Source: Escherichia coli (GTDB taxonomy: Bacteria > Pseudomonadota > Gammaproteobacteria > Enterobacterales > Enterobacteriaceae). Taken from it: 64,000 nucleotides of DNA. The stretch lies in assembly GCF_044324875.1 (NCBI RefSeq), contig NZ_CP172185.1, one strand, 5' to 3'. Under the pieces are notes generated by a model that was given only the letters and a program-made list of their open reading frames with translations, made no database searches and was not told the origin of the DNA. The position numbers were made by a program, and so were the translations under genes. Positions 48,858 through 52,468 of the stretch are shown piece by piece (positions within the stretch are counted from its first letter, which is position 1; the number at the start of each line of letters is the position of its first letter).

Positions 48858-50989
48858 TCAGAAGGTCACATTCAGCGTGGCCTGACCGTTATAGCCTTCA
48901 GCGCTGCTGCCGCTGACGCTGTGGATATAACCTGCCTGAACGCCCAGGGTGATATTTTCCCGGACACGGGCTTCCAGTCCGGCCTGCAGGTCCAGTGACG
49001 TACCATTCTGTGACGGTGAGAACGTCATGTTACTGCCGGCTGCGGCTGTACCCATGCTCATGTCCCCCCGGGAGCTGAAGGTGCGGATAACAGAAGGCTG
49101 TACCCACCAGTTCACCGGCAGTTCACGCACACTGTGTTTGGCACTGCCGCGCAGGGTGTCACGGGATGAGGTGCCTTTACCAAAGTTCATATCGTTGTGG
49201 CTGCCCAGACGGAAGCCGGCACGCACATGTTGTGCACTGCCATGCCCGAACTTCACATAACCGGCGTTATCCTGGCCGTCATCCAGGGAGAGTCCCTGCC
49301 AGGTGTACTGCAGTTGCGGCTCCAGCATCAGATTGTCAGTGATACTGAAGGGCAGACCGGTTTCCAGCGAACCCAGCCAGCCCCAGCCCCGGGCGCGGAA
49401 GTCGTTATTGTCCGATGAGGCTTTCATGCTGTGGCGGGTTCCTTGGGCCACAATGTCAGCCCACAGGCCGGAGGCGTTGTGTATCAGATTCAGGTATCCG
49501 CCCAGGCTGCCGGCATCATCCCGGACCGTGCCGGCACGGGAGCCGTCATCATCCTTAACATCAACGGAAGAATGGCCAGCAGCACCATATACCCCCGCGG
49601 TCACAGACATACCGGCAACCTCTGTTCTGAGCAGGTCACCCTCCAGACGGACGAAGCCATAGCTGCCGCTGCTTTCCGGCGTGGCTCCACGGGCAATACC
49701 GCCGTTGTTATCGTGACCGAGATGACCGCCCTGAATGCTGAGACGGACGCTGTTATTTTCACCGCTTACACCGGTCTGATGGCTGCGGGAGCCTGCCAGA
49801 ATCCGGTCATAGTCCATTGCCTGTGTCAGCATGGAGGCATACAGGGGGACTTCTGCACGATAAGCATTTTCACTGCGCAGATACCAGCTCTCATCACTGT
49901 CCCGGTTGAGGGAGTAGTTAAAGGCACCGGCCTGCAGCTTATTCCCCTGGACAAAGGCCCCTTCCTCCGTGGTGGCACCGTTAATGGCTTCCACCACCTG
50001 AATACCCTTACCGCTGGTCGCCAGCCCCGACGCACTGTTGCCGGCGTTCACCAGGTTCAGGATGGTTTTTCCGGTTGCCCTGCCACCGTCAATGACCAGT
50101 CTGTCAGCATTGTTCTGTGCCATATCCGGGCGTACACGCAGGCTGATGGTGCCATTCTGTCCGTTCAGGTTTTTCACTTTCAGGGTTGCCGGTACGAACT
50201 TCCCTGTGCGGGTGGAGGTGAAATGAATCTGTCCGGCATGGCTGAGGTTATCCACCACCGACTGCACCGTGGCGTTATCGGGAATATTCCAGGTGGCACC
50301 AGAGGCGAGAGTGACATTCGTGGGGTCAATGGCACCGTTCAGCACAGTGCTGCCGGTCAGCTTCAGGGCTGTACCGCGCTGAGCAATGACATCCGTGGTG
50401 ACGGTACTGTCGTTCAGCGTCAGCGTGCCTTCATTCAGGTTGACGGCTTTCTGGGTGAGTGTGGTGTTGCTGACAGTGAGTGTGCCACTTCCTGATTTTT
50501 CCACGCTGCCGTTACCGGTGAGAGAGCCTCCCTGCAGGAGTGCATCGCCTTCACGGATGGTCAGGGTATCGTTGTTCACCGTCTTCCCGGAAAGGGTAAG
50601 TATGGCGCCGTTATTCAGCGTGGTGGTGCCCGCCAGTGTGCCGCCCCTGGCGGTGAACAGTCCGCCATTTACCGTGGTATCCGTGGCCGTATCACCGGCG
50701 TTCAGCGTGAATGAACTGCCTTTTTCCAGCATCAGGGCATCCGCCTGACCGCCTCCGATACTGAATGCCTTTCCGTCGCTCCGGGTACCACTGACAGCGG
50801 CACCGGAATCGGCCAGCAGTACACCGCCATTTCCCATGGATACGGTGGTGGCGGTGCCACCGTTGCGGACATCCAGCGTTCCGCCATCATCCACGCGGGT
50901 ATTAGTGGCTGTGTGTCCGGTCAGCACATCCAGGCGTCCGCCATTTTCCAGTACGACATTATCAGCTTTACCCTCCACAACAGAGAATG
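48858..50989 (-). pseudogene. flu: Antigen 43 autotransporter gene, 5'-truncated by the IS3-family element (about 710 C-terminal codons remain)
   Basis: It contains the beta-helix passenger repeats (GGTATTVSMGNGGVLLADSGAAVSGT..) and a beta-barrel ending GQATLNVTF. The ORF-track start at 51041 lies inside the IS inverted repeat. No signal peptide is present. Confidence 0.88.
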
Positions 50990-51061
50990 TGTAGTGGCAC
51001 ACTAAATTTGGCCACCTGATGAAAGGTGATATTCTCACCACAACACAAAACAGGTGACTTA

Positions 51062-51373
51062 ATGAACAAGCAAACCAAACGAACCTTCACCCCTGAGTTC
51101 AGGCTGGAATGTGCACAGCTGATTGTTGATAAGGGCTACTCATATCGACAGGCCAGTGAAGCGATGAATGTCGGTTCAACCACGCTTGAGAGCTGGGTAC
51201 GCCAGCTCAGGCGAGAGCGCCAGGGTATTACGCCCTCTGCCACACCCATTACTCCAGACCAGCAACGTATCCGCGAGCTGGAAAAGCAAGTTCGCCGTCT
51301 GGAGGAACAAAATACGATATTAAAAAAGGCTACCGCGCTCTTAATGTCCGACTCGCTGAACGGTTCACGATAG
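51062..51373 (+). CDS. IS3-family OrfA (HTH + leucine zipper)
   Basis: The 103-aa ORF begins [55 protein letters not shown] and ends ..[14 protein letters not shown]. Confidence 0.9.
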
Positions 51374-52239
51374 CCGCCAGACTAAGTGACAGCCACACGG
51401 TTGTCAGCCTGTGTTCTGCTCTGGAAATACACCGCAGCAGTTACCGGTACTGGCGAAAACGACGCGATACGGTTAATCCGGCACGAGTCAGGTTGTGCAG
51501 CGAAATACGCCGGGCGTGGAACCAAAGTCGGGGCTCTGCGGGCGCGCGCACTCTGGCTGAAATGCTGACTCAAAACGGCGTCCCGATGAGCCGTTACCGT
51601 GCCGGACGTCTGATGAAATATCTGAACCTGAGCAGTTGTCAGCCCGGAAAACATCAGTATAAAAATGCCCGTCAGGAGCATACCAGCCTGCCGAATCTGC
51701 TTGAGCGTCAGTTCGCAGTACCGGAGCCAGACCGGGTATGGTGTGGAGATATTACGTATCTCTGGGCAGGAAATCGCTGGTGCTATCTGGCGGTTGTTAT
51801 GGATCTTTTTGCCCGCAGGGTTATCGGCTGGAGTCTGTCAGCGCATGCCGATACCGCACTGATAAGCAGTGCCCTGCGGATGGCCTATGAGACGCGTGGC
51901 CAACCCCGGGATGTCGTGTTCCATAGCGACCAGGGAAGCCAGTATACAGGCCTTAAATATCAACAACTTCTCTGGCGTTGCAGAATAAATCAAAGCGTCA
52001 GTCGGCGGGGAAACTGCTGGGATAACAGCCCCATGGAACGCTTCTTCCGCAGTCTGAAAACAGAATGGGTGCCAACGAATGGTTACGCAGGCAAGGACGA
52101 GGCCCGGCAGCAAATTAATGATTACATATTGAACTACTACAACAGCGTCAGACCTCACCATTATAACGGTGGGCTGACGCCGGAAGAGTCAGAGAACAGA
52201 TACCATTTTTACTGTAAAACCGTGGCCAATATTACTTGA
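51322..52239 (+). CDS. IS3-family OrfB (DDE transposase), expressed as OrfAB by -1 frameshift
   Basis: The slippery heptamer A-AAA-AAG at 51322..51328 is in the correct phase of orfA. The -1 frame is open from there and reads [15 protein letters not shown]..., joining the 51493..52239 ORF (DDE region WCGDITY...HSDQGSQY). Confidence 0.85.
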
Positions 52240-52398
52240 CCACTACAAAACAGCATGGTCAGATAAAGTGGTTTTTCCCGGACATAAATGTTTCCCCTCT
52301 CTCATCCGCCAGAGAAGCATCAGTCCGTTGTGTGCAATTCCGTTCTGCATGATGAAGAGATTCAGCTGCCTTTTCGCAGACCATTAACCACTATAAAC

Positions 52399-52468
52399 GA
52401 TCGATAGTAACGATCGATACCTGTTTTATCGATCGTTTTATTCTATTAACGGCAGGGAAGTCACGCAA
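52399..52468 (-). promoter_or_regulatory. flu (agn43) promoter and Dam/OxyR phase-variation switch
   Basis: Three GATC sites lie at 52399, 52412 and 52431 within AAACGATCGATAGTAACGATCGATACCTGTTTTATCGATCG. On the minus strand a -10 TAGAAT (52445..52440) and a -35 TTGCGT (52468..52463) are spaced 17 bp apart, immediately upstream of the GATC cluster. Confidence 0.75.

What the first reader, a model, noticed from the sequence alone, without database searches (positions are those of the whole stretch)
48858..52468. Antigen 43 truncated by an IS3-family element, leaving an intact Dam/OxyR phase switch aimed antisense into the transposase gene
The flu reading frame is interrupted at 50989/50990 by the left inverted repeat of a 1,258-bp IS3-family element. 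Only about 710 C-terminal codons remain, against about 1,039 in K-12 as I recall. The signal peptide and the first third of the passenger domain are gone.

The 3 nt flanking the IS differ (ATG versus AAA). There is therefore no target duplication, and about 1 kb was probably lost by IS-mediated deletion or inter-IS recombination.

The flu promoter survives on the other side of the IS. It has a -35 TTGCGT, a 17-bp spacer and a -10 TAGAAT, and its three-GATC OxyR/Dam switch (52399, 52412, 52431) is intact. It now fires toward the IS right end about 150-190 nt away, antisense to orfB.

The ORF track shows a 727-aa hybrid frame whose ATG (51041) lies inside the IS end. A signal-less Ag43 fragment could therefore be made.

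Speculation: phase-variable antisense transcription could modulate transposase expression.
Basis: partly seen in the sequence, partly recalled or inferred. Interest (0 to 1): 0.5.

Follow-up and report, generated by a model that had tools for sequence, protein, structure and literature searches.

The report
IS-truncated antigen 43 pseudogene
A common jumping gene (a 1,258-bp IS3-family insertion sequence) and an adjoining 1,054-bp deletion have killed one copy of the E. coli adhesin gene agn43; the gene's on/off promoter is left pointing into the back of the insertion sequence, an ordinary accident already present and annotated in a published chicken-pathogen genome.

Summary
An intact 1,258-bp IS3-family element (50990-52247, +) sits between the last 709 codons of agn43/flu (48858-50989, -) and the agn43 promoter with its three GATC sites (52399, 52412, 52431). 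Compared with a 99.8%-identical uninterrupted allele, exactly 1,054 bp are missing: codons 1-330, the ribosome-binding site and the last 66 nt of the leader. The missing leader part includes the IsrC/IS102 intrinsic terminator. The flanks (ATG/AAA) are not a duplication, whereas 9 of 11 other copies of this IS carry perfect 3-bp duplications, so a deletion accompanied the IS.

Corrections:
- The 727-aa hybrid ORF starts with GTG, not ATG, and no candidate start has a ribosome-binding site.
- More than half of the alpha-43 passenger is lost, not a third.

The same structure occurs in APEC strain BEN2908, where RefSeq annotates a pseudogene. A second genome shares the promoter-side junction but carries a deletion of about 11 kb. 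The likeliest consequence is loss of Ag43 and uncoupling of yeeR-irmA from the phase-variable promoter. Phase-variable antisense transcription into orfB is geometrically real but untested, and probably short and inconsequential. This is an ordinary, low-interest finding.

The parts
48858..50989 (-). 3' remnant of agn43/flu. It encodes Ag43 residues 331-1039: the distal part of alpha-43, the autochaperone and the beta-barrel. It has no start codon, RBS or signal peptide, so it is a pseudogene.
   Evidence: tblastn to the intact allele gives 99.86% identity over residues 331-1039, with 1 substitution and no stops. Pfam finds AIDA, AC_1, Pertactin and Autotransporter domains. NCBIfam NF033177 scores 1236 bits against a cut-off of 1200. 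RefSeq annotates the BEN2908 equivalent as 'incomplete; missing N-terminus'.
50990..52247 (+). Intact 1,258-bp IS3-family insertion sequence, a 92.8%-identical relative of ISEc31. IRL is 50990-51015 and IRR is 52222-52247.
   Evidence: The inverted repeats are 26 nt and 77% complementary. Full-length copies at 99.9% identity occur in many genomes. Nine of eleven other copies have 3-bp target duplications.
51062..51373 (+). IS orfA (103 aa, HTH). It contains the A AAA AAG -1 frameshift heptamer at 51322-51328.
   Evidence: Translation is open. Pfam HTH_Tnp_1 matches. RefSeq annotates 'programmed frameshift' for the near-identical WP_085968792.1. The heptamer is read directly from the sequence.
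51328..52239 (+). IS orfB frame (DDE/rve catalytic domain), open from the slippery site to its stop codon.
   Evidence: Translation shows no internal stop. Pfam rve scores 94 bits. NCBIfam NF033516 scores 268.7 bits against a cut-off of 160.
52248..52434 (-). Retained 5' part (187 nt) of the agn43 leader (IsrC/IS102 RNA). It is truncated just upstream of its intrinsic terminator.
   Evidence: It aligns to K-12 and to the intact allele. The K-12 isrC annotation runs 2071317-2071511. Rfam RF00124 matches K-12 (252.6 bits) and the intact allele (73.2 bits) at full length, but scores only 20.2 bits on the first ~45 nt in the window. The terminator at L002 6337..6310 lies inside the deleted segment.
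52399..52434 (-). Three GATC sites (52399-52402, 52412-52415, 52431-52434), forming the Dam target / presumed OxyR operator of the agn43 phase switch. They overlap the predicted TSS.
   Evidence: Read directly from the sequence. The 19/13-nt spacing and the offset from the -10 are the same as in K-12. The region is 100% identical to the intact allele.
52440..52468 (-). agn43 promoter: -35 TTGCGT (52468-52463), 17-nt spacer, -10 TAGAAT (52445-52440).
   Evidence: Read from the sequence. The -10 and the downstream sequence are identical to K-12, where isrC is annotated to start 6 nt after the -10. The generic scanner does not call it.
45690..48743 (-). [quoted passage not shown] They are now separated from the promoter by the IS.
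   Evidence: YeeR is 100% identical to the L002 protein. The ORFs are listed. The operon and its OxyR control are shown in PMC4807369.

Best explanation
[quoted passage not shown] The closest match is the AGI-3/selC island module of APEC BEN2908.

A mobile 1,258-bp IS3-family element landed in the locus, and an IS-associated deletion removed 1,054 bp. The promoter-side junction, in the agn43 leader, is shared with an unrelated genome, so that site was most likely the original insertion point. The deletion arose either from one end of the IS acting on nearby DNA or from recombination between two IS copies. It removed the leader's intrinsic terminator, the RBS, the start codon, the signal peptide and codons 1-330.

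Consequences, all inferred:
- No exported Ag43 is made from this copy.
- yeeR and irmA lose most or all transcription from the phase-variable promoter.
- In cells where the GATC sites are methylated (ON phase), the surviving promoter makes a 187-nt leader RNA that no longer terminates. It runs into the IS right end antisense to orfB, where it probably stops within a few hundred nucleotides. Any effect on transposase expression or IRR use would be an accidental by-product, not an evolved circuit.
For: Shown:
- IS ends and integrity.
- Exact 1,054-bp deletion relative to a 99.8% identical intact allele.
- No target duplication here, against perfect 3-bp duplications in 9 of 11 other copies.
- The remnant carries 1 substitution and no stops, and yeeR is 100% identical, so the event is recent.
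- The same structure is present in the independently sequenced BEN2908 and annotated there as a pseudogene.
- The right junction is nucleotide-identical in OkiPb01695, where the left side is an ~11-kb deletion. This gives one fixed end and a variable other end.
- The leader terminator lies inside the deleted segment, and the Rfam IS102 match is lost.
- The regulatory 240 nt are identical to the intact allele.

From the literature:
- agn43-yeeR-irmA is one OxyR-repressed operon, and an insertion downstream of agn43a in CFT073 abolishes IrmA (PMC4807369).
- IsrC is the flu leader/attenuator (PMC5389530; PMC5811629).
- IS3-family elements generate adjacent deletions from a few nt to more than 40 kb (PMC9943667).

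Inferred:
- The antisense RNA probably ends early. There is an IRR hairpin followed by U4, a C-rich/G-poor tract at 51834-51714, and a weak hairpin followed by T5 at 51681-51665.
Against: - No expression data exist, so promoter activity, OxyR binding to this allele and the extent of read-through are all unmeasured.
- The order of events and the deletion mechanism cannot be resolved from sequence.
- No undeleted ancestor (IS at this leader site with intact flu) exists among the 5,426 complete genomes.
- The host DNA next to the shared junction is only 95.2% identical between the window and OkiPb01695. The shared junction may therefore reflect a recurrent target site rather than common descent.
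Confidence: 0.85

Rival explanations
1. The arrangement is a functional regulatory module. Dam/OxyR phase-variable antisense transcription from the agn43 promoter controls transposase synthesis or IRR activity, making this IS copy epigenetically bistable.
For: - The geometry is right: the promoter faces the IRR 187 nt away.
- The leader terminator that would normally stop many transcripts has been deleted.
- The IS is intact and presumably active.
- The same IS sits in the same leader, in the same orientation, in MEI005.
Against: - Both junctions occur in only 1 of 5,426 complete genomes, so there is no sign of selection.
- The apparent orientation concordance among hits is an artefact, because the search joins only same-strand pieces.
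- The antisense RNA would have to cross more than 850 nt of untranslated sequence to reach the orfA/frameshift region. On the way it meets a C-rich/G-poor tract and hairpin-plus-T-run candidates.
- No expression data exist.
Confidence: 0.07
2. The deletion arose by homologous recombination between two directly repeated copies of the IS, one in the leader and one at codon 330. It did not arise by a transposase- or IEE-mediated adjacent deletion from a single copy.
For: - The flanks ATG and AAA are exactly what a recombinant between two independent insertions would show.
- This IS inserts repeatedly in and around agn43 at many sites.
Against: - No genome with either presumed parental insertion at codon 330 was found.
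- The model needs two insertions within 1 kb.
- OkiPb01695 shows a second, different left endpoint with the same right junction. That is more economically explained by repeated one-ended deletions, which are documented for IS3-family elements (PMC9943667).
Confidence: 0.3
3. Assembly artefact: reads from an intact flu copy and an IS elsewhere in the genome were collapsed or mis-joined.
For: - E. coli genomes carry several agn43 alleles and several copies of this IS.
- The window differs from BEN2908 in clustered SNPs that could reflect paralogue mixing.
Against: - Both junctions are reproduced base for base in the independently sequenced Nanopore-based BEN2908 chromosome.
- The right junction is also present in OkiPb01695.
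- The flanking genes are collinear with intact islands.
Confidence: 0.03

Closest known systems
agn43/flu locus of E. coli K-12 (CP4-44: yeeP-isrC-flu-yeeR) with its Dam/OxyR phase switch
   Same: - Same gene order.
- Same -10 hexamer.
- The three GATC sites have identical 19/13-nt spacing and start at the TSS.
- The leader corresponds to IsrC/IS102.
   Different: - This is a different allele: the -35 is TTGCGT against TTGTCC, and the leader is divergent.
- The leader is cut after 187 nt and loses its terminator.
- Codons 1-330 are missing.
- An IS has been inserted.
agn43 pseudogene + IS3-family transposase in module 5 of the AGI-3 (selC) island of APEC BEN2908 (NZ_LR740776.1, locus tags APEC2908_RS20045/RS20040)
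   Same: - Both junctions are identical.
- The IS is the same (1 nt difference).
- The neighbours are the same, with 99.5-99.7% identity over 15 kb.
   Different: There are scattered SNPs and many homopolymer indels, which are typical Nanopore R9.4 errors in the BEN2908 record. The window is therefore a different sequence record or a close relative.
IS disruption of the agn43a-yeeR-irmA operon in UPEC CFT073 (Moriel et al. 2016, PMC4807369)
   Same: An insertion sequence inside the operon uncouples downstream genes from the OxyR-controlled promoter.
   Different: In CFT073 the insertion lies downstream of agn43a and Ag43a is still made. Here the IS and the deletion remove the 5' third of agn43 itself.
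IS3-family adjacent deletions (IS629/IEE system; Kusumoto 2011, as cited in PMC9943667)
   Same: An intact IS3-family element is flanked on one side by a deletion, has no target duplication, and shows nested deletions of different size sharing one junction (window against OkiPb01695).
   Different: The IS is a different family member. Involvement of IEE is not testable from the window, and two-copy recombination remains possible.
ISEc31 (IS3 family)
   Same: It is 92.8% identical in nucleotide sequence over 1,258 bp, has the same termini and also makes 3-bp duplications. It too is found inside agn43 in at least 20 genomes.
   Different: About 7% divergence. RefSeq names the window-type transposase only 'IS3 family transposase' (WP_085968792.1). 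I could not determine its ISfinder name.

Membership tests
IS3 family insertion sequence | DDE (rve) transposase that passes the curated family model | tested here: met
   NCBIfam NF033516 scores 268.7 bits on the orfB product against a cut-off of 160. Pfam rve scores 94.3 bits and HTH_21 also matches.
IS3 family insertion sequence | Two overlapping frames (orfA/orfB) joined by a -1 programmed frameshift at an A AAA AAG-type heptamer | tested here: met
   The heptamer lies at 51322-51328 in the orfA frame. Both frames are open. RefSeq annotates 'programmed frameshift' for the near-identical protein. Frameshifting itself was not measured.
IS3 family insertion sequence | Imperfect terminal inverted repeats ending 5'-TG...CA-3' | tested here: met
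   The arms are 26 nt, TGTAGTGG...CCACTACA.
IS3 family insertion sequence | 3-4 bp target-site duplication | tested here: not met
   This copy has ATG and AAA flanks. The element itself does make them, since 9 of 11 other copies have perfect 3-bp duplications. The absence here therefore reflects a secondary deletion, not non-membership.
Ag43/Cah family autotransporter adhesin (functional gene) | Sequence membership under the curated equivalog model | tested here: met
   NF033177 scores 1236 bits against a cut-off of 1200, even for the fragment.
Ag43/Cah family autotransporter adhesin (functional gene) | N-terminal extended signal peptide, start codon and RBS needed for export | tested here: not met
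   Residues 1-330 and 66 nt of the leader are deleted. No candidate start has a Shine-Dalgarno-like sequence. This copy is therefore a pseudogene, not a functional member.
Ag43/Cah family autotransporter adhesin (functional gene) | C-terminal beta-barrel translocator and autochaperone | tested here: met
   Pfam Autotransporter (70 bits) and AC_1 (68 bits) both match.
Dam/OxyR agn43 phase switch | Three GATC sites clustered at and just downstream of the TSS, with K-12-like spacing | tested here: met
   GATC sites are at 52431, 52412 and 52399, spaced 19 and 13 nt, with the first 5 nt after the -10 as in K-12.
Dam/OxyR agn43 phase switch | Recognisable OxyR tetramer operator overlapping the GATC sites | tested here: inconclusive
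   The consensus match is 13/20 for the window and 14/20 for K-12, against a shuffle mean of 11.1 and maximum of 14. The consensus does not discriminate even the proven K-12 site.
Dam/OxyR agn43 phase switch | OxyR binding blocked by methylation, with heritable ON/OFF expression | not testable with these tools
   This needs EMSA or footprinting and reporter fusions. The only indirect support is 100% identity of 240 nt to the regulatory region of intact alleles, plus OxyR repression of agn43 in UPEC strains (PMC4807369).
IsrC / IS102 leader RNA (Rfam RF00124) | Score at or above the Rfam gathering threshold, with the 3' terminator hairpin | tested here: not met
   The window scores 20.2 bits against a threshold of 46, with only the 5' ~45 nt aligned. 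The intact allele scores 73.2 bits and K-12 252.6 bits. The terminator is deleted.

The most novel reading that the evidence does not exclude
The agn43 leader, just upstream of its terminator hairpin, is a preferred landing site for this IS. Supporting this, the nucleotide junction is identical in two lineages whose flanking DNA is 5% diverged, and there is a third insertion about 50 nt away. Once the IS is there, the Dam/OxyR switch imposes heritable ON/OFF antisense transcription on it. IS activity, or residual yeeR-irmA expression by read-through, would then become phase-variable.
Probability: 0.06. Interest if true: 0.5.

Novelty: already known. Interest (0 to 1): 0.12.

Why it matters
It matters little beyond correct annotation. 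This agn43 copy should be called a pseudogene, and irmA and yeeR in this island should not be assumed to be expressed or phase-variable, which is relevant if IrmA or Ag43 are counted as virulence or vaccine antigens in this lineage. It is also a tidy natural example of IS-associated nested deletion. In addition, it is a natural construct in which the agn43 leader terminator is removed, which could be used to study leader attenuation or epigenetically switched antisense transcription.

Tried and rejected
- The generic sigma-70 scan finds no promoter in 50800-52700. The agn43 promoter has a poor -35, so I relied on homology to K-12 instead.
- Scoring against the OxyR consensus does not discriminate.
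- I looked for an undeleted ancestor using junction-specific searches. None has the left junction apart from BEN2908, and none has the right junction with intact flu.
- I considered an orientation bias of the IS relative to flu across genomes. I rejected it because the search tool joins only same-strand pieces, which makes concordant orientation an artefact.
- There is no second IS copy or second flu copy in the window, and no tRNA in the window.
- The primary agn43 papers (Wallecha 2002 and 2014, Kaminska 2010, Henderson & Owen 1999) and the AGI-3 paper (Chouikha 2006) are not held. The TSS and leader attenuation therefore rest on the RefSeq isrC annotation, Rfam and secondary citations.
- I could not determine the ISfinder name of the element. 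Only its 92.8% identity to an element annotated as ISEc31 is established.
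Full report
**1. What is in the sequence**

Reading 48600-53200 and the ORF table gives the following layout on the minus strand, in order of transcription:
- a yeeP-like GTPase gene (53465-52554);
- an intergenic region with the promoter-like TTGCGT-17 nt-TAGAAT (52468-52440) and three GATC sites (52431, 52412, 52399);
- a 1,258-bp element (52247-50990) whose genes lie on the plus strand;
- an open frame homologous to the C-terminal two thirds of antigen 43 (50989-48858);
- an 840-aa yeeR-like gene (48743-46221);
- a 151-aa irmA ORF (46145-45690).

The element has 26-nt imperfect terminal inverted repeats beginning TG and ending CA. Its orfA (HTH_Tnp_1) ends after an in-frame A AAA AAG heptamer at 51322-51328. 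The -1 frame is open from there to 52239 and carries HTH_21 and rve domains. NCBIfam's IS3-family model scores 268.7 bits against a cut-off of 160.

Full-length copies (positions 1-1258, 99.9% identity) occur in hundreds of E. coli genomes in unrelated contexts. This fixes the ends at 50990 and 52247 and shows the element is mobile. It is 92.8% identical to a copy that RefSeq names ISEc31.

**2. Size and content of the loss**

Many genomes carry an uninterrupted allele that is 99.8% identical to both flanks. I used NZ_CP085074 as L002.

Exact mapping places the last flu base before the IS at L002 5290 and the first base after the IS at L002 6345, so 1,054 bp are missing. In gene terms the deletion runs from 66 nt upstream of the ATG to within codon 330 of a 1,039-aa protein. 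The remnant encodes residues 331-1039 with a single substitution and no stop, and yeeR is 100% identical at the protein level. The event is therefore recent.

The lost segment includes the RBS, the start codon and the extended signal peptide. With the published processing sites (my recollection: signal peptide 1-52, alpha-43 53-551) it also removes about 56% of alpha-43.

The deletion also removes a strong intrinsic terminator in the leader: a 12-bp stem with 9 G·C pairs followed by T6, at L002 6337-6310.

**3. No target duplication, so a deletion occurred**

The trinucleotides flanking the IS are ATG and AAA. I extracted the flanks of the same IS from eleven other loci. Nine have perfect 3-bp duplications (AAC, CCC, AGG, TTG, CTC, CCT, TAC, CTC, CAC). 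The exceptions are BEN2908, which is the same event as the window, and one locus with an obvious deletion in yeeP. The element therefore normally duplicates 3 bp, and its absence here is meaningful.

**4. How common is it, and what was the order of events**

Both junctions together occur in 1 of 5,426 complete E. coli genomes, the APEC strain BEN2908. RefSeq annotates that locus as 'Ag43/Cah family autotransporter adhesin, incomplete, missing N-terminus' next to an 'IS3 family transposase'. The region corresponds to module 5 of the selC island AGI-3 (PMC4807369).

The window differs from that record by scattered SNPs and many homopolymer indels. The BEN2908 chromosome was assembled from Nanopore R9.4 reads (PMC12928451). 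The two are therefore independent determinations of the same structure, which argues against mis-assembly.

The promoter-side junction alone (CCACTACA|AAACAGCATGG) is also present in OkiPb01695. There the other end of the IS abuts a DUF4942 gene that maps to window 40534-41053, so about 11 kb including flu-yeeR-irmA is gone.

One junction fixed and the other variable is the pattern expected if the leader site was the original insertion point and deletions then proceeded from the other IS end. [quoted passage not shown] Recombination between two IS copies would give the same product and cannot be excluded.

The host DNA next to the shared junction is only 95.2% identical between the two genomes, while the IS copies are 99.8% identical. 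The shared junction may therefore be a recurrent target rather than common descent. No undeleted ancestor was found.

**5. The surviving switch**

From upstream of the -35 to the junction, 240 nt are identical to the intact allele. Only a poly-C tract further upstream differs, at 11 nt against 9.

Relative to K-12, the -10 and the following AAAAC GATC are identical, and the three GATC sites have the same 19- and 13-nt spacing. In MG1655 the sRNA gene isrC is annotated from the G of the first GATC to the T-run of the leader hairpin. Rfam's IS102 model (RF00124) covers exactly this region in K-12 (252.6 bits) and in the intact sister allele (73.2 bits). The literature describes IsrC as the flu leader whose (anti)termination controls flu (PMC5389530; PMC5811629).

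By homology the TSS in the window is about 52434, and the leader runs 187 nt to the IS. In the window only the first ~45 nt still resemble IS102, scoring 20.2 bits against a gathering score of 46.

Scoring against the OxyR consensus does not discriminate even for the proven K-12 operator. 'Intact switch' is therefore a statement about sequence identity, not about demonstrated binding.

**6. Likely consequences**

agn43, yeeR and irmA are co-transcribed from the OxyR-controlled promoter, and an insertion inside the CFT073 agn43a operon abolishes IrmA (PMC4807369). Here the promoter is separated from the remnant and from yeeR-irmA by 1,258 bp of antisense IS.

I infer, but have not shown, that this copy produces no exported Ag43 and little or no phase-variable yeeR-irmA mRNA.

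The 727-aa hybrid ORF begins with GTG at 51041, not ATG. Neither it nor any in-frame start in the first 70 codons has a Shine-Dalgarno-like sequence. The product would also lack a signal peptide.

The promoter does point into the IS antisense to orfB, and the deletion of the leader terminator means transcripts should now enter the IS. On that path lie several features:
- an IRR hairpin followed by GGUUUU;
- a C-rich/G-poor tract (51834-51714) suitable for Rho loading;
- a weak hairpin followed by T5 at 51681-51665.

I therefore expect most antisense RNA to end within orfB, well short of orfA and the frameshift site. Convergent transcription could still dampen this copy's transposase expression or IRR use in ON-phase cells. 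That would be a by-product of an accident, and nothing in its distribution suggests selection.

**7. Comparison with what is known, and verdict**

Every component is a known entity: an IS3-family element, the Ag43/Cah autotransporter, the Dam/OxyR agn43 switch, the IsrC/IS102 leader and IS-adjacent deletion. The exact composite is already present and annotated in a published genome, and IS disruption of this operon is documented in UPEC.

The deletion inference is confirmed and sized. The antisense-regulation idea remains an untested speculation of low prior probability.

Interest is low, and I rate the novelty as already known.

Noticed in passing
window 51058-51180 (+): Rfam RF01387 'isrC Hfq binding RNA' (the Salmonella-type IsrC) matches the 5' end of the IS orfA at full length with 147 bits. 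That Rfam family therefore appears to be derived from an IS3-family transposase mRNA 5' region. It should not be confused with E. coli IsrC/IS102 (RF00124), which is the agn43 leader.
   Followed up: partly
L014 (NZ_AP042570.1, OkiPb01695) 5813-7070; maps to window 40534-41053 and 52248 onward: The same IS has a nucleotide-identical junction to the agn43 leader, but an ~11-kb deletion on the other side removes flu-yeeR-irmA and the antirestriction/radC/TA genes. The flanking host DNA is only 95.2% identical to the window, so this may be a recurrent target site next to the leader terminator.
   Followed up: partly
L011 (NZ_CP071259.1, MEI005) 3968-5225; equivalent to about window 52296-52300: The same IS is inserted in the agn43 leader about 50 nt nearer the promoter. 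It has a perfect CTC duplication, and the terminator and full-length agn43 remain downstream. This is a natural no-deletion counterpart in which the switch also fires into the IS.
   Followed up: partly
L004 and at least 20 further genomes: ISEc31, a 92.8%-identical relative, interrupts the signal-peptide (ESPR) region of agn43 in a whole lineage, including strain M12 and its capsule mutants. IS3-family hits in agn43 are common.
   Followed up: no
window 52487-52497: A homopolymeric G tract on the plus strand (C on the agn43 strand) is 11 nt long here but 9 nt in the intact allele L002 and in BEN2908. It lies about 19-29 nt upstream of the -35. It could be real slippage or a sequencing difference, and its effect on the promoter is unknown.
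   Followed up: no
window 1438-1567 (+): A full-length IstR sRNA (RF01400, 147.5 bits) is present, so the left end of the window contains the tisB/istR locus. No tRNA gene is found anywhere in the window.
   Followed up: no
window 51071: The IS in the window has C where BEN2908 and the Rfam consensus have A, giving OrfA K4Q. Most other copies differ from the window's at a single position, probably this one.
   Followed up: no
window 42700-58600 compared with L001: Differences from BEN2908 include two tight SNP clusters: about 8 SNPs in 150 bp of the DUF932 gene and about 7 SNPs in 270 bp of the flu beta-domain. This suggests gene conversion between paralogous island modules or polishing artefacts in one of the records.
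   Followed up: no
L013 (NZ_CP148374.1) 4601-5858: Another copy of the IS lacks a target duplication (ATA/TGT). It is next to a truncated yeeP GTPase gene, giving a second independent example of an IS-associated deletion in this island family.
   Followed up: no
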